A DNA stretch of 32,000 nucleotides. Origin: Bauldia sp. GTDB lineage: Bacteria; Pseudomonadota; Alphaproteobacteria; Rhizobiales; Kaistiaceae. The DNA lies in assembly GCA_035548515.1 (NCBI GenBank), contig DASZSW010000026.1, forward strand, positions 131,900 to 163,899, given 5' to 3'. How positions within the stretch are numbered: position 1 is the stretch's first letter; every line of letters starts with the position of its first letter. Made by a program: the position numbers and the translations under genes. Shown here one piece after another: positions 487 through 9,421 of this stretch. The notes beneath the pieces are model-generated. The model did no database searches and was not told where the DNA came from. It saw only the letters and a program-made list of their open reading frames with translations.

Positions 487-660
487 CAATCGGTTGCCGC
501 CGGCGCTTGCGCCCCGATACGGCCGCCCATGTGCGCTTCCCCGGCAGTTTCCCCGCCGCCCACGCGCGGGTGACGGACTTTCCAGGGCCATGAGCCGCGA
601 CGCGCGAGGCGTCGCAGGAGGGGGAAAGTGACGTGATTCTGGGTTGTGGGGAAGGGAAAC
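487..660. repeat. Copy A of a ~174-bp direct repeat (partner at 933..1106)
   Basis: Manual alignment. Both copies begin caatcggttgccgccggcgc and share cgatacggccgcccatgtgcgc and cgcgacgcgcgaggcg blocks. The offset is 446 bp, with scattered substitutions and small indels. Confidence 0.8.
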
Positions 661-676
661 CTGCGGACGCGGCCGG

Positions 677-859
677 TCAGGCCGGCGGGGCGCGGTGCCA
701 CAGGCCTTTCTTGATGTCGAATTTCACCAGCCCCTCGTCGCGCATCTGCATCAGCAGTATCTGGACGGCATCAACCGAGCCGCCCGGATTGAGGATGGCG
801 CGGAGGGAGAGGGTGGAGCGCGGCTTGTCGAGGGCGGCGAGGACTTTTTCTTTGGTCAT
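677..859 (-). CDS. Small hypothetical protein (60 aa), possibly a winged-helix-like DNA binder
   Basis: Taken from the ORF-track entry 677..901(-), using the internal ATG at 857..859 (MTKEKVLAALDKPRSTLSLRAILNPGG...). It is the only non-Arg/Pro-rich ORF in this region and sits exactly between the two 174-bp repeats. No strong RBS is seen. Confidence 0.35.
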   Translation of the reverse strand: MTKEKVLAALDKPRSTLSLRAILNPGGSVDAVQILLMQMRDEGLVKFDIKKGLWHRAPPA

Positions 860-932
860 GAGGCGAGGGTTTACAGCAATTCTGGGGTGGCGGAGCCCCA
901 ATCGGCGGCGAGATGTGAGGTCTTGCTAGCTA

Positions 933-1106
933 CAATCGGTTGCCGCCGGCGCTTTCGCCCCGATACGGCCGCCCATGTGCGCGTCCCCGGCGGCGTTTCC
1001 CGCCACCCACGCGCGGGCAGCGGCCATTCCAAGGCATGGACCGCGACGCGCGAGGCGCCGCAGGCGGGGGAAGGTGGGGTGATTCTGGCGCGGGGGGAAG
1101 GGTGAC
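933..1106. repeat. Copy B of the ~174-bp direct repeat (partner at 487..660)
   Basis: See copy A; manual alignment. Confidence 0.8.
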
Positions 1107-1192
1107 TTGTTGAAGCGGAGTGCAATCATGAGCAGAAATGGAATTCCCCCTTCCATTGCATTAACCTGCTTTCGTGTCAGAACTCGCCCAAA

Positions 1193-1224
1193 GGTTGACT
1201 TTTAAGTCAACCCACCCCCATATT
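1193..1224 (+). promoter_or_regulatory. Putative operator palindrome overlapping a sigma70-like promoter
   Basis: ggttgactt-tt-aagtcaacc is a 9-2-9 perfect inverted repeat at 1193..1212. It contains TTGACT (1195..1200), followed 18 nt later by CATATT (1219..1224). It lies just upstream of the ATG at 1273. Confidence 0.4.
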
Positions 1225-1272
1225 GGCGGAGCAATCCCGGATTGGCTCGTTTCTGCGCCAGTCCGAGCGCGG

Positions 1273-1728
1273 ATGATCTTTCCGCCAAAACGGTGCTTCT
1301 TGGTTCACAGAGATATCCACGCGAAGCTGGCTCAACCAAACGGTGGCTTCCCAGACGTCCAGGGCGCAGTCTTTGTCACGAACTTTGTCGGCGGCGGGCT
1401 GGTGTCTGCGAGTCTCCGGGGTGACCCCAACAAGAATCGACCGGACATGGAGCGGTTGGTGGACTTAGATGAGGTGTGGGTCGCCTGCTTTCGCCGGCCC
1501 CGCGACAATCAGTGGCGGCTGATGGGTCGCTTTGTACGTCAAAACGTCTTTATTGGATTGTCGCTCTATCGCCGTCGCGAGTTGGTAGATGGCGCCTATG
1601 CAAAGAAAGCCGCCGAATTTATCACGCGATGGAATTCACTCCTCGCGGCGGCGTCAGTGGTCAGAAGTGACTTTGTCGCCGACTATCTGAGCAAGCCCAC
1701 GATGGATGTCGATGCGCGAATTCTCTGA
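1273..1728 (+). CDS. Hypothetical protein whose C-terminal half resembles RelE/HigB (Gp49-type) toxins
   Basis: The ORF track gives 1174..1728. I prefer the ATG at 1273 because the GTG at 1174 would place the palindrome/promoter inside the gene. The segment EVWVACFRRPRDNQWRLMGRFVRQNVFIGLSLYRRRE has the beta-strand pattern of RelE/HigB-like toxins (recognised from memory, not verified). The gene overlaps the next gene by 23 nt and is AT-richer than its surroundings. Confidence 0.5.
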   Translation: MIFPPKRCFLVHRDIHAKLAQPNGGFPDVQGAVFVTNFVGGGLVSASLRGDPNKNRPDMERLVDLDEVWVACFRRPRDNQWRLMGRFVRQNVFIGLSLYRRRELVDGAYAKKAAEFITRWNSLLAAASVVRSDFVADYLSKPTMDVDARIL

Positions 1729-2245
1729 CGCCGAACTTAAGTTTGAGATTGAGTACCAGCGCGAGCTGTTGCGGACAGCCTTCTATGGAGCGTTCCTCAC
1801 TGCGGTGGAAGCGCGTCGCGATGAAGACGGCCTAACTCAGGCCGCTTTGGCACGCCTAACGGGCAAGGACAAAACTGCGGTAAGCAAGCTGCTTTCAGAG
1901 CCCAAGAATTGGACGCTCCGAACCGTTTCAGATCTTTGCGTTGCTCTAGACGTGTCCCTGCTGTTCTGTTTGCTGGACAACGCAAGCGAAACCCGAGTGT
2001 TCAGCGGCACAGGAATCGAACATCTAACGTTGCGCCAGGTTCCCTATGGAAACTTCGTGCCGGCCGCTGGCGGTGGTGGAGGTTCCACCGCGATCTACAG
2101 TAGTTCGATTTCGGGAACAGGAACATCTGTTAGCGTCGCTAGCGGCCCTCTAGCTGCTGTCGCCATCAACGGTTCTACCGTAACCCTTGGGCAAATTGAG
2201 CCGTCCAATATTCCCAATCAAGCGACTACTGGGGGTGCCGGATGA
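1706..2245 (+). CDS. XRE-family helix-turn-helix protein with a Gly/Ser/Thr-rich C-terminal tail
   Basis: LTQAALARLTGKDKTAVSKLLSEPKNWTLRTVSDLCVAL is a classic XRE/Cro HTH. The gene overlaps the upstream gene, and its stop overlaps the next start (ATGA at 2242..2245). Confidence 0.7.
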   Translation: MSMREFSDAELKFEIEYQRELLRTAFYGAFLTAVEARRDEDGLTQAALARLTGKDKTAVSKLLSEPKNWTLRTVSDLCVALDVSLLFCLLDNASETRVFSGTGIEHLTLRQVPYGNFVPAAGGGGGSTAIYSSSISGTGTSVSVASGPLAAVAINGSTVTLGQIEPSNIPNQATTGGAG

Positions 2246-2742
2246 CTGGGGCGCTGACACCCTCACCGCCCTCGATCAACGGAAAATTCAAGTTCAGCGC
2301 CGTCGTCTTTTGCGAGGGAGTTCGGCGAGAGGACAACGGCAAGCTGATGCTACTTGGCGTCCCCGGTGGCGACCTACTGATCCAGCAGGCCTATCCAGCC
2401 AACGTTCCTCTGTTCGCACACATTGAAGGTGACGTCGTCGAACCCGGTCTTTTTTCACAGGTCTTCAGGTTTGTTGACGAAACGGGTGCCGCACTGTCGC
2501 CCCCCATAGAGGTCAAGTCCTCCGCGCCGTTTGTGCGAGGGGGCTTTGCCGTGCAGGTCTTTGCATCAATAGTCTTCCAGCGAAGCTGTACTCTCATTCT
2601 GCAAATGCGCGAAGAAGGCGGATGGCGAGAACTCGCGCGAAAAGCCGTGGTGCACGAAAATGAGCTGATTTCGCGATTTGCTCCCGAGTCTCTCTCAGAG
2701 TTGATTAAGCAAAGCTTGGAGACGCTGCGGCGCCGTTCTTAG
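2242..2742 (+). CDS. Hypothetical protein (166 aa), translationally coupled to the HTH gene
   Basis: Clean ORF with non-GC-biased composition and an ATGA start/stop overlap. I recognise no family with confidence. Confidence 0.55.
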   Translation: MTGALTPSPPSINGKFKFSAVVFCEGVRREDNGKLMLLGVPGGDLLIQQAYPANVPLFAHIEGDVVEPGLFSQVFRFVDETGAALSPPIEVKSSAPFVRGGFAVQVFASIVFQRSCTLILQMREEGGWRELARKAVVHENELISRFAPESLSELIKQSLETLRRRS

Positions 2743-2854: not shown

Positions 2855-2904
2855 CCCCTCCCCAAAACCGCTTTCGCGGTTTTGGCCCTCCCGCAAGGGG
2901 AGGG
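2855..2904. repeat. REP-like double hairpin
   Basis: ccaaaaccgc-tttc-gcggttttgg is a perfect 10-bp stem at 2862..2885. It is immediately followed by ccctccc-gcaag-gggaggg (2886..2904). Confidence 0.7.
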
Positions 2905-3002
2905 CTCATGCGCGGCGATGTCGCGAGTTGCGATCAAGGGTGTGATGGTTTCATGGCCTCCGCGGCGTTTGCCTCGGGGGTCGTTTTGTTTCTGGAGGCG
3001 CG

Positions 3003-3539
3003 GTGGTGACGCATCTGAATGGGGCTGGCGCCTTTCCCGAACTGGGGTCGGTGCGGCCGGATCATGCGGCGGCGGTGGCCGAGGCGCGGCGAATGGTCGA
3101 GGGGACGACGCTGTCGCAGCACGCTATCGCGCAGCAGCTTCGCGTTTCGGACAGCACCGTCTCGCTATGGAAGAAGCGGTGGGGATGGATGCGGCCGGAA
3201 GGGTCACCGGTGGCGCCGCCGGAGTTTGCGGGACGCGATACCGCGAAGGCGGCGGAGAAGCGGCGGGACGTGCTGGTCGGGCGCCTCTACCGCGTGTTTG
3301 ATCGGCAGCTGATGGATGTTGAATCGCGCGCGGCTGATGCCGTGGCGGTGACTGAGGAGAAAGATGCCCGCACTCTGGGCACGCTTGCACGGACGCTTGG
3401 AACGCTGATTGCGCTTGAAGCGGGAGGCGAGCGGGAGGACGGCGCACCGGCGGATGAACCGGAGCGATACGATCCCGATGAAGTCCGCGCGCGACTTGCG
3501 GCACGACTTGCTGGACTACGCGAAGAAGGAGACGATTGA
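3003..3539 (+). CDS. GTA g1-like protein (HTH, small-terminase-like position)
   Basis: First gene of the head cluster. TLSQHAIAQQLRVSDSTVSLWKKRW is an HTH-like segment. The start is uncertain (GTG 3003 or ATG 3093). The 3' end overlaps the terminase gene. Confidence 0.55.
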   Translation: MVTHLNGAGAFPELGSVRPDHAAAVAEARRMVEGTTLSQHAIAQQLRVSDSTVSLWKKRWGWMRPEGSPVAPPEFAGRDTAKAAEKRRDVLVGRLYRVFDRQLMDVESRAADAVAVTEEKDARTLGTLARTLGTLIALEAGGEREDGAPADEPERYDPDEVRARLAARLAGLREEGDD

Positions 3540-4803
3540 GGCGCGGCTGGCGACGCTCTCGCCGCGCGAGCGGGGCGAGCTTTCGCGGGCCTGGGATTTT
3601 CTGGCGCGGCGTGATCAATGGCCGCCCGAGGGCGACTGGCTAGTCTGGCTGCTGATGGGCGGACGCGGCTCGGGCAAGACGCGCACGGGCGCGGAGTGGG
3701 TGCGCGGCATGGCGCTCGGCCTTTGGCCGTTCGCCGACGCGCCGGTCGGGCGCATCGCGCTGGTTGGCGAGACGTTCGCAGACGTGCGTGAGGTGATGAT
3801 CGAGGGCGTGTCGGGTATCCTCGCGGTGCACGAGCGGCAGCGGCGGCCGACCTGGCTGCCGGCGCGGCGCATGATAGTGTGGGACAACGGCGCGCGGGCG
3901 CAGGCGTTTTCGTCGGAGGATCCGGAGTCGCTGCGCGGTCCGCAGTTTTCGGCGGCCTGGTCGGACGAGGCGGCGAAATGGAAACACGCCCAGGCGACGT
4001 GGGACATGCTGCAGTTCGGGCTGCGGCTGGGCGCGCGGCCGCGCCAGGTGGTGACCACGACGCCGCGGCCGGTACCGCTGATCCGGCGGCTGATGGAGGC
4101 GGCGGGAACGGTGGTGACGCGGTCGCGGACGGCCGACAACCGGGCGAACCTCGCGACGGGATTCCTGGCGCGCATGGCCGACCAGTATGGCGGCACGCGG
4201 CTGGGGCGGCAGGAGCTGGACGGCGAGCTGATCGAGGATCGCGCGGACGCGCTGTTCGTGCGCGACCAGATCGAGGCGGCGCGTGTCGCGGCGGCGCCGG
4301 AGATGCGGCGCGTGGTGGTGGCGGTCGACCCGCCGGCCTCGCGGCGCTCGGGCACGTGCGGGATCGTCGCGGCAGGATTGGGCAAGGACGGCTTCGGCTA
4401 TGTGCTCGCCGACGTTTCGGCGGCGGCGGCGCGGCCCACGGAATGGGCAGCTCGGGCGGTGGCGCTCTACCGGCGGCTCGGCGCCGACGCGCTGGTGGCG
4501 GAGGTGAACCAGGGCGGCGACATGGTGGCCGCCGTGATCCGCGAGGTCGACGCCGGCGTGCCGGTGAAGGAAGTACGGGCGACGCGCGGCAAGTACCTGC
4601 GCGCCGAGCCGGTGGCGGCCTTGTATGCGCAGGGACGTGTGCGCCATGCCGGCAAGTTCGCCGAGCTGGAAGACGAGATGGCGGATTTCGGATTGGACGG
4701 GCTGTCGGCGGGACGCTCGCCGGACCGGCTCGACGCGCTGGTGTGGGCGGTGACGGCGCTGATGCTGGGGGAGGGTGGGGAGCCGCGGATCGGGCGGGTC
4801 TAG
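3478..4803 (+). CDS. Phage/GTA terminase large subunit (RcGTA g2-like)
   Basis: Walker A motif LMGGRGSGKTRTGAEWV, preceded by W-x-F-x-ARRDQWPPEGDW as in GTA terminases. The ORF opens at 3409; ATG 3478 is chosen and the start is uncertain. Confidence 0.9.
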   Translation: MKSARDLRHDLLDYAKKETIEARLATLSPRERGELSRAWDFLARRDQWPPEGDWLVWLLMGGRGSGKTRTGAEWVRGMALGLWPFADAPVGRIALVGETFADVREVMIEGVSGILAVHERQRRPTWLPARRMIVWDNGARAQAFSSEDPESLRGPQFSAAWSDEAAKWKHAQATWDMLQFGLRLGARPRQVVTTTPRPVPLIRRLMEAAGTVVTRSRTADNRANLATGFLARMADQYGGTRLGRQELDGELIEDRADALFVRDQIEAARVAAAPEMRRVVVAVDPPASRRSGTCGIVAAGLGKDGFGYVLADVSAAAARPTEWAARAVALYRRLGADALVAEVNQGGDMVAAVIREVDAGVPVKEVRATRGKYLRAEPVAALYAQGRVRHAGKFAELEDEMADFGLDGLSAGRSPDRLDALVWAVTALMLGEGGEPRIGRV

Positions 4804-5153: not shown

Positions 5154-6137
5154 ATGCATTCGCGGCACGCGGCGCGGCTGGGGCGCGATATCTCGGCGAT
5201 CGGATTTGGCGCCTGGCAGATCGGCGGAAGCTGGGGCGAGGTTGCGGAGCATGACGCCGAGGCGGCGTTGGCCGCGGCGCTCGATGGCGGCGTGACGTTT
5301 GTCGATACGGCGGACGTGTACGGCGGCGGACGGTCGGAGGAGATCATCGGCCGCGTGTTGAAGCAGCGCGGCGGGCGGCGGCCGTTCGTCGCGACCAAGT
5401 GCGGGCGCGGCGGGACGAACAAGGCGGATTCGTACACGAAGGCGAACCTCGCCCAATGGGTGGAGGCGAGCCTGAAGCGGCTGCAGGTGGAGGCGCTGGA
5501 TCTCGTCCAGCTCCACTGCCCGCCGACGCAGGTCTATTACATGCCGGAGGTGTTCGGCGCGCTCGACGAGCTGGTCGTGGCGGGGAAGCTCCGCGCCTAC
5601 GGCGTCAGCGTCGAGAAGGTCGAGGAGGGACTGAAGGCGATCGAGTATCCGGGCGTTGCGAGCGTCCAGATCATCTACAACATCTTCCGCCAGCGACCGG
5701 CGCGGCTCTTCTTTCGCGAGGCGAAACGGCGGGGTGTTGCGGTGATCGCGCGCGTGCCGCTGTCGAGCGGGATGCTGACCGGCAAGCTGACGCGCGAGAC
5801 GAAGTTTGCGGAGGACGACCATCGCGACTTCAACCGCGAGGGCGAGTCGTTCGACAAGGGCGAGACGTTTTCCGGCGTGCCGTACGACGTCGGCCTCGAC
5901 GCGGTCGAGGAGCTGCGGCCGCTGGTGCCTGGCGGGGTGCCGATGGCGGCGTTCGCGCTCCGCTGGATATTGATGAACGACGCGGTGACGACGGTGATCC
6001 CGGGCGCGCGCAATGCCGCCCAGGCGAAGGGCAACGCGGCGGCCGACGACGTCGCGCCGCTGTCGGACAGGACGATGGCCGCGGTGGCGGAAGTTTACCA
6101 GCGGCGCATCGCGCCGTGGGTCGAGGCGCGGTGGTAG
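5154..6137 (+). CDS. Aldo/keto reductase family oxidoreductase
   Basis: MHSRHAARLGRDISAIGFGAWQIGG...VTFVDTADVYGGGRSEEIIGRVLK matches the AKR N-terminal signature. It is the last 327 codons of the 3879..6137 ORF-track entry; the ATG at 5154 is in frame. Confidence 0.9.
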   Translation: MHSRHAARLGRDISAIGFGAWQIGGSWGEVAEHDAEAALAAALDGGVTFVDTADVYGGGRSEEIIGRVLKQRGGRRPFVATKCGRGGTNKADSYTKANLAQWVEASLKRLQVEALDLVQLHCPPTQVYYMPEVFGALDELVVAGKLRAYGVSVEKVEEGLKAIEYPGVASVQIIYNIFRQRPARLFFREAKRRGVAVIARVPLSSGMLTGKLTRETKFAEDDHRDFNREGESFDKGETFSGVPYDVGLDAVEELRPLVPGGVPMAAFALRWILMNDAVTTVIPGARNAAQAKGNAAADDVAPLSDRTMAAVAEVYQRRIAPWVEARW

Positions 6138-6170
6138 CGCCCGCCTAACGCGGGTTTCTTGCGGAGGTCG

Positions 6171-6320
6171 GCGAGACCCCCACCCACCGCCTGCGGCGGT
6201 CCCCCCTCCCCGCAAGGGGGAGGGATGGTGCCTCATTCTGCGGCATCGGGATGTTGCGCTGCCTTCCCTCCCCCTTGCGGGGAGGGTGCCGAGCGACAGC
6301 GAGGCAGGTGGGGGTCTCGC
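6171..6320. repeat. 150-bp MITE/REP-like nested palindrome
   Basis: Perfect 14-bp terminal inverted repeats gcgagacccccacc (6171..6184) and ggtgggggtctcgc (6307..6320). They enclose the hairpins ccctcccc-gcaa-ggggaggg (~6203..6224) and ccctcccc-cttg-cggggaggg (~6266..6286). Confidence 0.75.
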
Positions 6321-6348
6321 GACCTCTGATGTGAACTTCGGAGAGCAC

Positions 6349-7929
6349 ATGCGCATTCCATTTCTGGCGGCGCGCGGGAGCGCGGCGGACGACGTCGCGC
6401 GCCGTGAGCATGAGGCGAAGGCTTCGCGCGCCGGGCCGGTGATCGCGTGGCAGACGCAGCACCGCGCCGTGTGGACGCCGCGCGACTATGCGGCGCTGGC
6501 GCGCGAAGGGTTCGCCCGCAACGCGGTGGTCTATCGCTGCGTGCGCATGATCGCGGAGGCGACGGCGTCGGTGCCCTGGCTGCTCTACGAGGGCGAGGCG
6601 GAGCTGACGGAGCATCCGCTGCTGGCGCTGTTGGCGCGGCCGAACCGGCGGCAGGCCGGCGCGGATTTCCGCGAGTCGCTGGCCGGCTACCTGATGGTGG
6701 CGGGCAATGCGTACCTCGAAGCCGTGGATGTGGATGGCGCCGTGCGGGAACTGCACACGTTGCGGCCCGACCGCATGAAGGTGGTGCCGGGCAGCGACGG
6801 CTGGCCGGAGGCTTATGAGTACACCGCGGGCGGGCGCTCGGTGCGCTTCGCCGTGCCTGGCGAGGGCATGTCGCCGATCCTGCACCTTTCGCTGTTCCAT
6901 CCGCTCGACGATCACTACGGCTTCGCGCCGATGGACGCGGCGGCGGTGGCGCTCGACCTGCACAACGCTGCCGGCACCTGGAACAAGGCGCTGCTCGACA
7001 ATTCGGCGCGGCCATCCGGCGCGCTCATCTACCAGGCGAAGGACGGCGGCAATCTCTCCGCCGAGCAGTACGAACGGCTGAAGTCGGAACTGGAGACGGG
7101 CTTCACTGGCGCAGCGCGCGCCGGGCGGCCGCTGCTCTTGGAAGGCGGGCTCGACTGGAAGGCGATGGCGCTAACGCCCAAGGACATGGATTTCCTCGAG
7201 GCGAAGAACGGCGCCGCGCGCGAGATCGCGCTGGCCTTCGGCGTGCCGCCGATGCTGCTCGGCATCCCCGGCGACAACACCTACGCGAATTACAAGGAAG
7301 CCAACGCTGCGTTCTGGCGCGGCACGGTGCTGCCGCTGGCGGCGAAGATCGCGGGCGCGATCGGCGCGTGGCTGGCGCCGGCGTTCGGCGATGGGCTCAG
7401 GCTGTGGTTCGACGCGGACCAGGTCGAGGCGCTTGGCGCTGACCGCGAGGCGCTGTGGGCCCGCATCGCCGCGGCGGATTTCCTGACGCTGAACGAGAAG
7501 CGCGCGGCGGTTGGGTATGAGGCGCTCGCCGGCGGCGATGAGGTGAAGCGGGCGGATGCGGTGCACGCGCCGGAGCGCCGCTACAATCCGGACTGGGCCA
7601 GCCAGCCGCGTGCGCCGGCGGGCAGCGGTGAGGAAAGCGGGCGGTGGATCGACGCCGGGGTAGGTCGCAGAGATGAAGGCACGTCAGACGCGTCAGGCAC
7701 AGTGTCCGCCGCTACGCCAATTGTCGTTGCCGGCGGCTTTGAGCCTGGTCAGGAAAGCATGACGGTGCAGGATTTCGTGTCAGCATTCTGTAGAGCTGGC
7801 ATATACAGCGAGTTACCCGGACAATTCCTTGGGATGACCATTATCGACGTCATGGGCCTCGCCAAGTCTGGTGATGCCGCCGCTCGCACGTGTCTGAAGC
7901 TGCTCGGGCGCGATCGATTTCGAAAATAA
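6349..7929 (+). CDS. HK97-family phage/GTA portal protein (RcGTA g3-like) with a ~123-aa non-portal C-terminal extension
   Basis: ATG 6349 follows ggagag. The portal core runs from ...NAVVYRCVRMIAEATASVPW... through ...FLTLNEKRAAVGYEALAGGDEV (~400 aa). The ORF then continues to 7929 through a Pro/Gly linker and an AT-richer unrelated domain. Confidence 0.9.
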   Translation: MRIPFLAARGSAADDVARREHEAKASRAGPVIAWQTQHRAVWTPRDYAALAREGFARNAVVYRCVRMIAEATASVPWLLYEGEAELTEHPLLALLARPNRRQAGADFRESLAGYLMVAGNAYLEAVDVDGAVRELHTLRPDRMKVVPGSDGWPEAYEYTAGGRSVRFAVPGEGMSPILHLSLFHPLDDHYGFAPMDAAAVALDLHNAAGTWNKALLDNSARPSGALIYQAKDGGNLSAEQYERLKSELETGFTGAARAGRPLLLEGGLDWKAMALTPKDMDFLEAKNGAAREIALAFGVPPMLLGIPGDNTYANYKEANAAFWRGTVLPLAAKIAGAIGAWLAPAFGDGLRLWFDADQVEALGADREALWARIAAADFLTLNEKRAAVGYEALAGGDEVKRADAVHAPERRYNPDWASQPRAPAGSGEESGRWIDAGVGRRDEGTSDASGTVSAATPIVVAGGFEPGQESMTVQDFVSAFCRAGIYSELPGQFLGMTIIDVMGLAKSGDAAARTCLKLLGRDRFRK

Positions 7930-7943
7930 GGGGAGGAAAAAAT

Positions 7944-8186
7944 ATGACGCTAAACGGGATCAATGATCTCCTCGCCTTCGCCAATTTGCTGAGAGCAGCG
8001 AAAGTCGAATATCGTCTGGAGCACTCACGGCACGATGCGTTGACCATCCAGCTCTTCCTGATCGGCGCATTTATCGAGATCGACTTTTTCGATGACCACA
8101 TCGAGTACACTTTTTTCGAAGGAAGCGAGAGCGTACTGGACGATCAGGAACGGCTGTTTGCGCTGATCGACAACGCGAAGGGTTAG
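7944..8186 (+). CDS. Small acidic hypothetical protein (80 aa), an immunity-protein-like candidate
   Basis: ATG 7944 follows ggggagga. The gene starts 15 nt after the portal stop, is visibly AT-rich, and is acidic (DFFDDHIEYTFFEGSESVLDDQE). Confidence 0.55.
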   Translation: MTLNGINDLLAFANLLRAAKVEYRLEHSRHDALTIQLFLIGAFIEIDFFDDHIEYTFFEGSESVLDDQERLFALIDNAKG

Positions 8187-8196
8187 AACGAAACCC

Positions 8197-8424
8197 GCCG
8201 CTGACGGCGAAGATCGCGGGCGCGATCGGCGCCTGGCTGGCGCCGGCGTTCGGCGAGGGGCTCAGGCTGTGGTTCGACGCCGACCAGGTCGAGGCGCTTG
8301 GCGCTGACCGCGAGGCGCTGTGGGCCCGCATCGCCGCGGCGGATTTCCCGACGCTGAACGAGAAGCGCGCGGCGGTTGGGTATGAGGCGCTCGCCGGCGG
8401 CGATGAGGTGAAGCGGGCGGATGC
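8197..8424 (+). repeat. Second copy of the portal 3' end (matches 7332..7559)
   Basis: Manual base-by-base alignment gives 228 bp with 5 mismatches and no indels. Confidence 0.95.
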
Positions 8425-8692
8425 TGCGGCGTGGAAGTACAGCCCCGATCAGCCCCGCGTGCCGGCCGGGAGCCCGGAAGGCGGGCAGTGGACTGTTGGC
8501 GCGGAAGCACTCGCCGAAAATGATATTGGCCGCCTCGTAGCGGAGTTGCCGTGGTCCGGAGGCGGGAGAAAATGCGTTTACCGGTTTGACACGTTCAGTA
8601 TTTTGGTTGACGGACCGGTGAACTTTCGCTGCCAGGACTGGGTGCCCTGGTCGGCGGTGACGCACGGTCAAAGACTGAACGACAACTATTGA
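8198..8692 (+). other. Orphan module: start-less portal 3' fragment fused in frame to a different C-terminal domain
   Basis: The frame is open from the repeat (PLTAKIAGAIGAWLAPAFGEGLRLWFDADQVEAL...GGDEVKRADA) into new sequence (AAWKYSPDQPRVPAGSPEGGQWTVGAEALAENDIGRLVAELPWSGGGRKCVYRFDTFSILVDGPVNFRCQDW...). The only start-like codon is the internal GTG at 8408, which begins the ORF-track entry 8408..8692. Confidence 0.7.
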
Positions 8693-8703
8693 AAGGTCGC
8701 GTC

Positions 8704-9039
8704 ATGACGGACGGTTTGCTCATCGCGACGTTCACGCTGTCCGCGGCAGCAAAGCATGGCGTGGAGCGCGTCAGAGAACTCTATCTTGCACGTTTTCCCG
8801 ACAATCCGCCGGCCGTGGCATCCGTTGCATGGGGGTATGTCGAAGGAAGCGATCCGCTTTCCGGGAAGGTCATCGTTGGATTTTACCAGCAATCCCAGTT
8901 TGCTGAAATCGAACATGGCATACAGGAAGTGTCGGGCGTGCCGCTGATCTATTTCACGACCGAGCAGTTCCATCCGCTGTTCGACGGAAAGGTGTTGGAC
9001 TACGAGGATGGGCAGGGGTTTTTTCTGAGGGCGCCGTAG
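8704..9039 (+). CDS. Hypothetical protein (111 aa), an immunity-like candidate paired with the orphan C-terminal domain
   Basis: ATG 8704 lies 12 nt after the orphan ORF stop, with aaagg upstream. Ordinary composition. No family recognised. Confidence 0.5.
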   Translation: MTDGLLIATFTLSAAAKHGVERVRELYLARFPDNPPAVASVAWGYVEGSDPLSGKVIVGFYQQSQFAEIEHGIQEVSGVPLIYFTTEQFHPLFDGKVLDYEDGQGFFLRAP

Positions 9040-9059
9040 CTGGGCCCGAAGCCGCTGCA

Positions 9060-9222
9060 ATGCTGCTCGGCATTCCCGGCGACAACACCTGCGCCAACTA
9101 CAAGGAAGCCAACGCCGCCTTCTGGCGCGGCACGGTGCTTCCGCTGACGGCGAAGATCGCCGGCGCGATCGGCGCCTGGCTGGCGCCGGCGTTCGGCGAT
9201 GGCCTAGGCTGTGGGTTCGATG
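9060..9222 (+). repeat. Third, degenerate copy of the portal 3' region (matches ~7252..7412)
   Basis: Manual alignment shows about a dozen substitutions plus two 1-nt indels near the 3' end. It translates as MLLGIPGDNTCANYKEANAAFWRGTVLPLTAKIAGAIGAWLAPAFGDGL, against portal MLLGIPGDNTYANYKEANAAFWRGTVLPLAAKIAGAIGAWLAPAFGDGL. Confidence 0.9.
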
Positions 9223-9235
9223 ATGGGAACAGGAC

Positions 9236-9421
9236 TTGGACGACATCACGCGCACGATCAGCGAGCGCGGCGATCTTGCGCACCTGGTGCTCTTCCTTTG
9301 GGCGAGCGGGGCGAGCGGGTTGCTCGTGTGGGTGCTGAAGGAGCTCGCCGCTTCCAACCGGCGGTTCAACGACTTCGTTTCCGAGATCGCGCGGCTGAAC
9401 CGGTTTTTCGATCGGGATTAG
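9236..9421 (+). CDS. Small putative membrane protein (61 aa) at the position of RcGTA g3.5
   Basis: TTG start from the ORF track. It has a hydrophobic core (LAHLVLFLWASGASGLLVWVL) followed by an amphipathic tail. Assignment to the g3.5 family rests on position only. Confidence 0.3.
   Translation: MDDITRTISERGDLAHLVLFLWASGASGLLVWVLKELAASNRRFNDFVSEIARLNRFFDRD

What the first reader, a model, noticed from the sequence alone, without database searches (positions are those of the whole stretch)
1174..2742. AT-richer three-gene overlapping operon (RelE/HigB-like, XRE-HTH, unknown) inserted just upstream of the GTA cluster
Three ORFs overlap or abut one another (a 23-nt overlap, then ATGA). Their composition is clearly less GC-rich than everything around them, and REP/repeat DNA flanks them on both sides.
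- The first protein's C-terminal half looks like a RelE/HigB/Gp49 toxin core but carries an extra ~65-aa N-terminal region.
- The second has an XRE HTH (the HigA position) plus an odd Gly/Ser/Thr-rich tail.
- The third (166 aa) is unrecognised.

Toxin-first order plus an extra coupled gene suggests a tripartite TA-like or abortive-infection/defence module rather than a canonical two-gene TA. Its position directly 5' of GTA g1 also raises the possibility of a role in GTA control.
Basis: partly seen in the sequence, partly recalled or inferred. Interest (0 to 1): 0.65.

Follow-up and report, generated by a model that had tools for sequence, protein, structure and literature searches.

The report
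Three-gene HigB-like toxin-antitoxin module
A foreign-looking three-gene cassette next to the gene-transfer-agent genes is one copy of a conserved, uncharacterised toxin-antitoxin-type module: a distant HigB-like toxin, a DNA-binding antitoxin with a floppy tail, and a third protein (DUF6941) of unknown function that may do the job a chaperone does in known three-part systems.

Summary
Three overlapping + strand ORFs (A 1174/1195-1728, B 1706-2245, C 2242-2742) form the lowest-GC stretch of the window (0.565 vs 0.676; GC3 0.56-0.64 vs 0.81-0.90 in GTA genes). Repeats flank only the upstream side.

The trio is a real, conserved module:
- A defines an unannotated family of about 196 clusters.
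- In 25 of 25 loci with room, an XRE-HTH gene overlaps A's end.
- A third gene follows in 22 of 23 such loci: DUF6941-type in 19, another family in 3.

A has no family hit. A confident model (pLDDT 90.9) has HigB topology, and its best PDB matches are HigB toxins, but weakly (E 0.09). In sister DUF6941 trios the first gene is a bona fide Pfam Gp49 toxin.

B has a 39-105 aa variable tail wherever a third gene exists, and 18 aa where none does. An 18-bp dyad, GTTGACTTTWAnnnCAAC, overlaps A's conserved TTG start in nearly every locus.

My best reading is a mobile tripartite HigBA-type module, analogous to TAC systems but with DUF6941 instead of SecB. C's role is unproven. The GTA link is not conserved, although phage packaging or portal genes recur nearby. 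I rate it a new variant of a known kind.

The parts
1194..1211 (+). 18-bp dyad-symmetric element GTTGACTTTTAAGTCAAC overlapping the TTG start of gene A. It is the putative operator of protein B.
   Evidence: It is unique in the window, with 0 matches expected in shuffles. The consensus GTTGACTTTWAWGNCAAC (up to 3 mismatches) occurs once, at the same position relative to gene A, in nearly every family-A locus that includes the gene's 5' end. That is 28 hits in 227 kb against about 0.3 expected. It forms a stable RNA hairpin only in the window (z -5.0) and not in L016 or L027 (z about -1), so a DNA site is the better reading. Binding by B was not tested.
1195..1728 (+). Gene A: 177 aa from the conserved TTG (the ORF is open from GTG 1174, giving 184 aa). 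It belongs to an unannotated family with a predicted HigB/Gp49-like (BECR-type) core plus N- and C-terminal extensions. It is the putative toxin.
   Evidence: - Exhaustive profile search: 196 clusters at E<=1e-3.
- No hit for the window protein in any family library; 3 of 82 relatives give weak Gp49 hits.
- AF2 with 82 sequences gives pLDDT 90.9 and the order a1-a2-b1-b4-long a3.
- Best PDB matches are HigB toxins 6af4, 5ja8, 8a0x, 7awk and 6kml, with E>=0.09.
- hhalign against canonical Gp49 gives P=0.0066.
- Conserved residues: R115 and G118 in 82/82; R40, W102, R107, R119, K/R134 and Y171 in at least 74/82.
1706..2245 (+). Gene B: XRE-family HTH protein of 179 aa. It has a conserved N-terminal segment (aa 1-30), an HTH (aa ~31-100; DNA 1808-1960 for Pfam HTH_3 aa 35-85) and a variable low-complexity tail (aa ~103-179, DNA ~2012-2242). 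It is the putative antitoxin and autorepressor.
   Evidence: - HTH_3 E=8e-8 and HTH_26; phrog_1373 covers aa 10-92, E=8e-12.
- Weak HipB and Y4mF antitoxin similarity.
- It overlaps the end of A in 25 of 25 loci with room.
- The tail is the least conserved part. It is 39-105 aa in all trios and 18 aa in the one A-B-only locus.
2242..2742 (+). Gene C: 166 aa, a divergent DUF6941 (PF22091) protein with the conserved N-terminal motif F-C-[DE]-x-[VI]-R-x-E-x-x-G-K-x(4)-G. Its biochemical function is unknown. It is the putative accessory or sensor component.
   Evidence: - Window protein: 22.5 bits against a cut-off of 27. All 4 close homologues hit DUF6941. The C proteins of L020 and L023 pass the cut-off.
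- The family profile finds 341 proteins, all annotated 'hypothetical'.
- Invariant residues: R28, E30, K34, G39, P52.
- No similarity to SecB or to any PDB sequence.
- No paper mentions DUF6941 or PF22091.
2863..2905 (+). Two adjacent GC-rich stem-loops (9 bp and 8 bp) about 120 nt downstream of C, with no U-tract. This may be the 3' boundary or terminator of the module, or a REP-like element.
   Evidence: RNA fold of 2780-2915: -72.6 kcal/mol, z -2.5. The consensus terminator scan did not call it, and it is not repeated elsewhere in the window.

Best explanation
The segment ~1190-2750 is a horizontally acquired, self-contained three-gene toxin-antitoxin-type module. It belongs to a conserved but undescribed family.

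- Gene A encodes a very divergent relative of the Gp49/HigB branch of the RelE superfamily. It most likely acts as a translation-dependent mRNA endonuclease. This is inferred from the predicted fold, from conserved Arg/Lys residues at the positions of the HigB catalytic residues, and from its interchangeability with bona fide Gp49 genes in sister operons.
- Gene B, translationally coupled to A by a 23-nt overlap, encodes the antitoxin. Its conserved N-terminal segment plus XRE HTH would neutralise A. It would also repress the operon by binding the conserved 18-bp dyad that overlaps A's TTG start codon (inferred).
- B also carries a long, fast-evolving, low-complexity C-terminal tail. Gene C (DUF6941), coupled by an ATGA overlap, is proposed to act on that tail. 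It would stabilise or hold the antitoxin, and act as the input or sensor of the system, as the SecB-like chaperone does on the ChAD tail in TAC (HigBAC) systems. Loss of the C-tail interaction, for example during phage infection, would free the toxin and arrest growth.

Shown here: the gene anatomy, the conservation of the trio and of the dyad, the foreign composition, and the mobility of the module.

Inferred: toxicity, neutralisation and operator binding.

Least certain: the role of C.

The position next to the GTA cluster is best read as an insertion into phage-derived DNA rather than as a GTA regulator.
For: 1. Conserved synteny.
- An HTH gene overlaps the end of A in 25 of 25 distinct family-A loci with room.
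- In 23 loci with room for a third gene, it is DUF6941-type in 19, another family in 3, and absent in 1.
- Seven of 8 sampled DUF6941 neighbourhoods show the trio.

2. A resembles HigB.
- The model has pLDDT 90.9 with a1-a2-b1..b4-long a3. That is the layout described for Gp49-like HigB toxins (PMC9098466).
- The top Foldseek PDB hits are S. pneumoniae HigB, V. cholerae HigB2, M. tuberculosis HigB1, E. coli HigB and BrnT.
- Gp49 is the only Pfam family hit by more than one relative.
- hhalign against canonical Gp49 aligns 61 columns in the expected register, P=0.0066.
- In L033/L034 the first gene of a DUF6941 trio is a Pfam Gp49 protein.
- R107, R115 and K/R134 are conserved where HigB(TAC) has R68, R77 and K95 (PMC9098466).

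3. B as antitoxin and repressor.
- It has an XRE HTH.
- The conserved dyad sits at A's start: 28 hits against ~0.3 expected.

4. Link between the tail and the third gene.
- Tails are 39-105 aa in all trios and 18 aa in the only A-B pair.

5. Mobility.
- GC3 is 0.56-0.64 against 0.81-0.90 in the neighbouring GTA genes. The L004 copy shows the same GC dip.
- Neighbours elsewhere are IS3, IS1, IS1595, portal fragments and terS genes.
Against: - No statistically significant sequence or structure match ties A to RelE/HigB. Foldseek's best E is 0.094 with TM of 0.52 or less. hhalign probability is 5.8%. The window protein has no HMM hit at E<=10.
- C shows no similarity to SecB or to any chaperone. 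Its invariant R/E/K motif looks as much like an enzyme or ligand site as like a chaperone.
- The tail-versus-third-gene correlation rests on a single A-B-only locus.
- The window tail has only 3 aromatic residues, whereas ChAD recognition relies on aromatic residues.
- No PADLOC model matches A or C.
- Nothing about toxicity, neutralisation or DNA binding was, or could be, tested here.
Confidence: 0.5

Rival explanations
1. A and B form an ordinary two-gene HigBA-type TA pair. C is a functionally independent passenger gene that simply travels with them. Caulobacter higX is an example: it lies downstream of higBA but acts independently.
For: - One locus (L026/L027) has A-B alone.
- The third gene is replaced by an unrelated family in L007, L008 and L041.
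- One DUF6941-like protein (L039) lies outside any trio.
- There is a precedent for an independent third gene after higBA (PMC13384398).
Against: - C is coupled to B by a 4-nt ATGA overlap or a gap of a few bases in nearly all loci.
- 7 of 8 sampled DUF6941 genes sit behind an HTH gene and a small first gene, even when the first gene belongs to a different (Gp49) family.
- B keeps a long extra tail only when a third gene is present.
- For higX the synteny is not conserved (PMC13384398), which is the opposite of what is seen here.
Confidence: 0.15
2. C (DUF6941) is the real effector or sensor-effector of a defence or abortive-infection system. A-B is its regulatory pair, with A being a catalytically inactive or repurposed BECR-like co-regulator rather than a toxin.
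For: - C has a strictly conserved charged motif (R28, E30, K34, and D-D at 25-26 in most members) that suggests a catalytic or ligand-binding site.
- A is so diverged that no toxin HMM recognises it.
- Some HigB paralogues are non-toxic (PMC9098466).
- HTH regulators commonly precede defence genes.
Against: - A keeps highly conserved Arg/Lys/Tyr residues at the positions expected for a RelE-type active site.
- Bona fide Gp49 toxins occupy the same slot in sister trios.
- C can be swapped for another family while A-B stays. That fits an accessory role better than an effector role.
- C matches no PADLOC effector.
Confidence: 0.2
3. The trio is a phage- or GTA-associated regulatory cassette, with a Gp49-like protein and a Cro/CI-like repressor. 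It would control expression of the adjacent packaging and head genes, here GTA g1/terL, rather than act as a TA module.
For: - It lies directly 5' of, and on the same strand as, the GTA g1-like and terL genes.
- Other copies lie near terS genes (L041), portal fragments (L038, L042) or on IMG/VR viral contigs.
- B matches phage repressor PHROGs.
Against: - No other copy is next to a GTA. Many copies lie between housekeeping genes or next to IS elements.
- The conserved dyad sits at the module's own start and occurs nowhere else in the window, so there is no sign of B sites in the GTA promoter region.
- The composition marks the trio as foreign to the GTA cluster.
- 260 bp containing stem-loops separates C from g1.
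Confidence: 0.1

Closest known systems
TAC (toxin-antitoxin-chaperone) systems, e.g. M. tuberculosis HigB1-HigA1-Rv1957 and E. coli HigBAC (PMC5105189, PMC6377645, PMC9098466, bioRxiv 10.1101/2024.02.24.581848)
   Same: - Three co-directional, tightly coupled genes in the order toxin, HTH antitoxin, ~150-180 aa third protein.
- The toxin is of the Gp49/HigB type with a long C-terminal helix.
- The antitoxin has a C-terminal, poorly conserved, disordered extension of 40-100 aa.
- Known TACs act in anti-phage abortive infection and sense phage structural proteins.
- This module is often found in phage-derived DNA.
   Different: - The third gene is DUF6941, not SecB-like: there is no Pfam SecB hit and hhalign probability is <1%.
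- The toxin is not recognised by the Gp49 HMM and has extra N- and C-terminal segments.
- The tail is G/S/T/A-rich with few aromatic residues.
- Chaperone dependence is untested.
- In three loci the third gene is replaced by yet another family.
Canonical two-gene Gp49(PF05973)/HigB-XRE HTH type II TA modules (Gp49 family as listed in PMC11980606)
   Same: - Toxin-first order and overlapping genes.
- An XRE HTH antitoxin.
- A palindromic site at the operon start.
- A predicted a-a-b-b-b-b-a core.
- Conserved basic residues on b2, b3 and after b4.
   Different: - A conserved third gene is present.
- The antitoxin is about 40-100 aa longer.
- The toxin is about 50-60 aa longer, and its sequence similarity is at noise level (best pairwise P=0.0066).
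- The start codon is a conserved TTG embedded in the dyad.
Caulobacter crescentus higBA-higX (PMC13384398)
   Same: An alphaproteobacterial higBA-type pair of foreign composition, followed by a closely associated third gene.
   Different: [quoted passage not shown]
- Here C is not a transcription factor, it shares the foreign composition of A-B, and its synteny with the TA pair is conserved across distant loci.
Other tripartite TA modules (pasABC, paaR-paaA-parE, omega-epsilon-zeta; from my own knowledge, not checked here)
   Same: A RelE/ParE-type or other toxin with its antitoxin plus a third small protein that modulates neutralisation or transcription.
   Different: - In those systems the third component is a regulator or enhancer encoded first or last, with a different gene order.
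- None involves DUF6941 or a tailed HTH antitoxin.

Membership tests
Gp49 / HigB-type toxins (Pfam PF05973; RelE/ParE BECR superfamily) | Match to the family HMM at or above the gathering score | tested here: not met
   The window protein A has no Pfam, NCBIfam, PHROG or PADLOC hit, even at E<=10. Among 82 relatives, 3 give sub-threshold Gp49 hits, best E 0.0057.
Gp49 / HigB-type toxins (Pfam PF05973; RelE/ParE BECR superfamily) | BECR/RelE fold: two N-terminal helices, a four-stranded antiparallel sheet and (in Gp49-like members) a long C-terminal helix | tested here: inconclusive
   The AF2 model (pLDDT 90.9, pTM 0.86) has a46-53, a61-72, b77-80, b102-106, b114-122, b125-133 and a141-156. 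Foldseek's best PDB hits are HigB toxins, but with E 0.09-1.5 and TM normalised to the target of 0.52 or less, and no hit reaches E<=1e-3. A domain-level superposition could not be run.
Gp49 / HigB-type toxins (Pfam PF05973; RelE/ParE BECR superfamily) | Conserved basic catalytic residues on b2, b3 and after b4 (HigB-TAC R68, R77, K95; RelE K54, R61, R81) | tested here: inconclusive
   R107 (74/82 K/R), R115 (82/82) and residue 134 (77/82 K/R) lie at the corresponding places in the model and in the hhalign register (PMC9098466). The correspondence is inferred from a weak alignment.
Gp49 / HigB-type toxins (Pfam PF05973; RelE/ParE BECR superfamily) | Ribosome-dependent mRNA cleavage and growth inhibition | not testable with these tools
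   This needs expression and in vitro translation or cleavage assays.
Type II toxin-antitoxin module (HigBA gene order) | Small co-directional overlapping genes, toxin first, with an antitoxin that has a DNA-binding domain | tested here: met
   A and B overlap by 23 nt. B has HTH_3 at 32.6 bits against a cut-off of 23. The arrangement is conserved in 25 of 25 loci with room.
Type II toxin-antitoxin module (HigBA gene order) | Palindromic operator at the operon start, bound by the antitoxin | tested here: inconclusive
   A conserved 18-bp dyad sits at A's start in nearly all loci: 28 hits against ~0.3 expected, and it is unique in the window. Binding by B was not tested.
TAC (toxin-antitoxin-chaperone) systems | The third gene encodes a SecB-like chaperone | tested here: not met
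   C and its relatives hit only DUF6941 in Pfam. There is no PDB sequence hit. No structure prediction of C was possible.
TAC (toxin-antitoxin-chaperone) systems | The antitoxin carries a C-terminal, variable, disordered extension (ChAD) that is absent from chaperone-independent relatives | tested here: inconclusive
   All trio B proteins have a 39-105 aa low-complexity tail after the HTH core. The single A-B-only locus has 18 aa. The tail is the least conserved region. Disorder and addiction were not measured, n=1 for the control class, and the window tail has few aromatic residues.
DUF6941 (Pfam PF22091) | Match to the family HMM at or above the gathering score (27 bits) | tested here: inconclusive
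   The window C scores 22.5 bits, E 1.5e-4, below the cut-off. All four close homologues hit the family, best E 6e-6. The C proteins of L020 and L023 pass at 28.8 and 28.0 bits. Many of the 341 profile hits carry precomputed PF22091. C is therefore a divergent subfamily.
Known anti-phage defence systems (PADLOC-DB v2) | The component proteins match the models of a described or candidate system | tested here: not met
   A and C give no hit at E<=1. B gives only generic HTH hits (PDC-M64B/C, HTH_VI, CapH) restricted to residues ~33-89.

The most novel reading that the evidence does not exclude
DUF6941 is a new, non-SecB class of TA-associated holder or sensor protein. It binds the disordered tail of the HTH antitoxin and is titrated away by a phage (or GTA) structural or packaging protein. 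That releases a highly diverged HigB-like RNase and aborts infection. The module itself rides as a moron in the packaging and portal region of prophages and GTAs. This would make it a second, independently evolved 'TAC-like' architecture, and it would give DUF6941 its first function.
Probability: 0.2. Interest if true: 0.75.

Novelty: new variant of a known kind. Interest (0 to 1): 0.55.

Why it matters
- It would give a first functional context to two uncharacterised families: DUF6941 (hundreds of members and no literature) and a ~200-cluster family that current TA and defence annotation pipelines miss completely.
- If C acts on the antitoxin tail, chaperone- or sensor-controlled TA systems would not be restricted to SecB homologues. 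That would widen the search space for tripartite abortive-infection systems.
- The conserved dyad over a TTG start gives a simple, testable regulatory handle.
- For GTA biology the message is mostly negative. The cassette is a foreign insertion beside the cluster, not a conserved GTA regulator.

Tried and rejected
- The first AF2 run on A with only 4 sequences gave pLDDT 39 and was discarded.
- Direct HMM comparison of the A profile with E. coli RelE, HigB, YoeB, RK2 ParE and V. cholerae HigB2 scored at noise level, 0.6 bits or less. Single-sequence hhalign against HigB2 gave probability 0.4%.
- PDB sequence searches with the A1 and A5 profiles found nothing relevant.
- NCBIfam and PHROG scans of 82 relatives showed no recurrent family.
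- The BFVD fold search gave one unnamed hit (E 5.7e-3) that could not be interpreted.
- SecB homology of C was rejected.
- tblastn of a canonical Gp49 gene against plasmids, meant to build a Gp49 profile, found nothing.
- A mixed alignment with HigB2 was misaligned and dropped.
- The idea that the dyad is an RNA hairpin hiding the start codon was rejected. It is stable only in the window, not in L016 or L027.
- The sigma-70 scan's only promoter call (TTGACT-18-CATATT at 1195-1224) lies inside the coding region. Its -10 is not conserved in L004, so it was not adopted.
- There are no tRNA or Rfam features in the window.
Full report
**1. What is in the sequence**

The region holds three + strand ORFs: 1174-1728 (184 aa), 1706-2245 (179 aa) and 2242-2742 (166 aa). 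They overlap by 23 nt and by the 4-nt ATGA.

The stretch is compositionally foreign:
- GC is 0.565 for 1195-2742 against 0.676 for the rest of the window.
- It is the lowest-GC 1.5-kb segment of the 32 kb.
- Third-codon-position GC is 0.56-0.64, against 0.81-0.90 in the terL, portal, capsid and GTA_TIM genes.

An RcGTA-type cluster does follow. It comprises a g1-like HTH/TerS ORF at 3003-3539, TerL at 3409-4803, portal, capsid, a head-tail connector, DUF2460 and a 1315-aa GTA_TIM/Rcc01698-type protein.

Repeated DNA lies only on the upstream side. It is a ~185-nt direct repeat (487-672 and 933-1118, 80-97% identical) that brackets a small minus-strand ORF. Downstream there are just two adjacent stem-loops at 2863-2905.

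**2. The trio is a conserved module, not a chance juxtaposition**

The word-indexed search found only three relatives of A among 5.8 billion proteins. All three contigs carry the same overlapping A, B (HTH), C arrangement.

An exhaustive profile search then showed that A belongs to a real but unannotated family of 196 clusters at 50% identity (107 with E<=1e-10).

I fetched related loci from metagenomes, one MAG and IMG/VR. I scanned them with profiles of A, B and C. This gave 27 distinct family-A loci:
- In all 25 with DNA downstream of A, a B-type HTH gene overlaps the end of A by 17-38 nt.
- Of the 23 with room for a third gene, 19 have a DUF6941-type gene. It usually overlaps B by ATGA.
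- Three (L007, L008, L041) have an unrelated 214-220 aa gene in that slot.
- One (L026/L027) has A-B only.

The reverse test starts from the C profile. It finds 341 DUF6941-type proteins, all annotated 'hypothetical'. Seven of 8 sampled neighbourhoods show the same trio. The exception is L039.

**3. What protein A is**

The window protein hits nothing in Pfam, NCBIfam, PADLOC or PHROGs, even at E<=10. Profiles of the family hit no PDB sequence.

Several independent but individually weak lines all point to the Gp49/HigB branch of the RelE superfamily:
- Gp49 is the only Pfam family hit by more than one of 82 relatives (3 hits, best E 0.0057).
- With the 82-sequence alignment AlphaFold gives a confident model (pLDDT 90.9, pTM 0.86). 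Its element order is a46-53, a61-72, b77-80, b102-106, b114-122, b125-133, then a long helix 141-156. This is the 'four antiparallel strands flanked by three helices, with a long C-terminal a3' layout described for Gp49-like HigB toxins (PMC9098466).
- The best Foldseek matches in the PDB are S. pneumoniae HigB (6af4), V. cholerae HigB2 (5ja8, 5jaa, 8a0x), M. tuberculosis HigB1 (7awk, 7nbu), E. coli HigB (6kml) and BrnT. The scores are poor, however: best E 0.094, probability 0.8, and TM normalised to the target of 0.52 or less.
- hhalign of the family against two canonical Gp49-type first genes aligns 61 columns in the expected register, 'EVWxxCFR..WRLxGRF..VFxGL' against 'ELYEFRIK..QYRPLGTY..YVIL'. 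The pairwise P is 0.0066 and the probability is only 5.8%.
- In the sister trios L033/L034 the slot of A is occupied by a protein with a clean Pfam Gp49 hit. L035 has a 28%-identical relative of that protein.

The most conserved residues of the family are R115 and G118 (82/82), R40, W102, R107, R119, K/R134 and Y171. R107, R115 and K/R134 fall where HigB(TAC) has R68, R77 and K95 (PMC9098466).

I conclude that A is probably a strongly diverged HigB/Gp49-like protein. It has about 40 extra N-terminal residues and about 28 extra C-terminal residues. Formal family membership is not established.

**4. Protein B and the cis-element**

B has a conserved N-terminal segment, an XRE HTH (HTH_3 E 8e-8; phrog_1373 over residues 10-92, E 8e-12; weak HipB/Y4mF antitoxin similarity) and a tail.

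The tail is the least conserved part of B. In the window it is 77 aa long, with 42 G/S/T/A residues, 3 charged and 3 aromatic. Across loci the tail is 39-105 aa wherever a third gene follows, and 18 aa in the single A-B-only locus.

The alignment of upstream regions and a palindrome scan gave an unexpected result. An 18-bp dyad, GTTGACTTTWAnnnCAAC, lies at exactly the same position in nearly every family-A locus:
- There are 28 matches in 227 kb, against ~0.3 expected.
- In the window it lies at 1194-1211 and is unique there.
- Its TTG is in frame with A. In L020 and L027 it is the first possible start of the ORF, so TTG 1195 is the conserved start codon.
- Codon third positions inside the element (ACT, TTT, nCA) and the G before the TTG are held constant in GC-rich hosts. 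This shows a constraint at the nucleic-acid level.
- As RNA the element is a stable hairpin only in the window (z -5.0 against about -1 in L016 and L027).

A protein-binding DNA site, the likely operator of B, is therefore the better reading. Public gene calls for A start inconsistently; the window's own call is 142 aa.

**5. Protein C**

C is a divergent DUF6941 protein:
- The window protein scores 22.5 bits against the 27-bit cut-off.
- Relatives reach 28.8 bits.
- The family has an invariant N-terminal motif with R28, E30, K34, G39 and P52.

No paper in the searchable library mentions DUF6941 or PF22091.

I tested the idea that C is a SecB-like chaperone. Pfam gives no SecB hit. No PDB sequence matches.

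**6. Mechanism proposed**

The anatomy is that of TAC systems: a toxin-first HigB-like gene, an HTH antitoxin with a variable disordered C-terminal tail, and a coupled ~150-170 aa third gene. In TAC systems a SecB-like chaperone holds the ChAD tail of the antitoxin. Phage proteins that compete for the chaperone then trigger the toxin (PMC5105189, PMC6377645, bioRxiv 10.1101/2024.02.24.581848, PMC11980606).

I therefore propose that:
- A is the RNase toxin.
- B neutralises A and represses the operon at the dyad.
- C acts through B's tail as a stabiliser or sensor.

The replaceability of the third gene and the tail-less A-B pair fit an accessory or input role for C.

This is a 'works like' statement only. 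Membership in TAC fails on its defining feature, since C is not SecB-like.

Three rivals remain open:
- C is an independent passenger, as higX is in Caulobacter (PMC13384398).
- C is the true effector and A-B its regulators.
- The trio is a phage or GTA regulatory cassette.

**7. Relation to the GTA**

No other copy is adjacent to a GTA:
- The MAG copy (L004) lies between an IS3 element and housekeeping genes, and it shows the same GC dip.
- Other copies lie next to IS1- and IS1595-type transposase genes.

Phage-derived neighbours do recur, however:
- L038 sits between two P22-portal fragments.
- L042 sits directly after a truncated SU10-type portal gene.
- L041 lies near two small-terminase genes.
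- L043 lies before a tail-fibre-type gene. L041, L042 and L043 are IMG/VR contigs.

The window copy is thus best seen as a mobile cassette that landed in phage-derived DNA. A conserved role in GTA control is not supported, and a local effect cannot be excluded.

**8. Verdict**

The RelE-fold claim is plausible but not proven. The GTA-control idea is not supported.

The system is a new variant of a known kind:
- It is a HigBA-type module with a conserved DUF6941 third component.
- Its toxin family is invisible to current HMM libraries.
- It has a conserved operator-like dyad over a TTG start.

Interest is moderate (0.55). It would be higher if DUF6941 proves to be a non-SecB antitoxin holder or phage sensor.

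Noticed in passing
window 7250-9400: The GTA portal ORF (6013-7929) has a C-terminal extension ('..YNPDWASQPRAPAGSGEESGRW..') that runs into low-GC DNA (GC 0.52 at 7800-8099), followed by a 98-aa ORF (7890-8186). The portal 3' segment is repeated at 8197-8424 (98% identical) and at 9060-9220 (89%). The second copy continues into a different C-terminal domain ('..YSPDQPRVPAGSPEGGQW..', ORF 8408-8692), followed by a 116-aa ORF (8689-9039). This resembles a polymorphic-toxin arrangement, with a C-terminal toxin domain on a head protein, an immunity gene and orphan cassettes.
   Followed up: partly
window ~5200-6137: An aldo/keto-reductase-like reading frame ('..FGAWQIGGSWG..DTADVYGGGRSEE..') appears to sit between GTA terL (3409-4803) and the portal gene. 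This would interrupt the usual GTA gene order. It was judged from the translation only. The one Pfam scan here was of the overlapping ORF 5399-6148, which is in a different frame, and it found nothing.
   Followed up: no
window 487-1118: A ~185-nt direct repeat (487-672 and 933-1118, 80-97% identical, spacing 446) brackets a small minus-strand ORF at 677-901 (74 aa) with no Pfam hit. Its nature is unknown: a REP-like or MITE-like element, or a duplicated intergenic segment.
   Followed up: partly
L007 1711-2373, L008 2145-2789, L041 1009-1656: In three family-A loci an alternative third gene of 214-220 aa ('MK.ISY......W...RP..G.....L......RY.F') replaces DUF6941 while B keeps a long tail. The judgement that the three are related rests on inspecting their N-terminal sequences. 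No alignment was run. None has a significant Pfam hit.
   Followed up: partly
L038 825-6474; L042 3786-4442: In L038 the ~5-kb segment carrying the trio lies between two fragments annotated P22_portal. In L042 an ORF covering only positions 2-163 of the 593-position SU10_portal model lies directly upstream of the trio. Both suggest insertion of the cassette into or beside phage portal genes.
   Followed up: partly
L029 1298-2026 and L030 959-1537: Gene A is split over two reading frames in these two related soil contigs: the profile matches two overlapping ORFs. This is either a frameshifted pseudogene or a sequencing error.
   Followed up: no
B proteins of L011, L016, L020, L033, L037, L038, L040: Many B tails end in small or hydrophobic residues (..ALALA..SAAA..RASA..SRVA..GVVA..LEAA..DRVA). 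[quoted passage not shown] The window tail ends ..GGAG (bioRxiv 10.1101/2024.02.24.581848).
   Followed up: no
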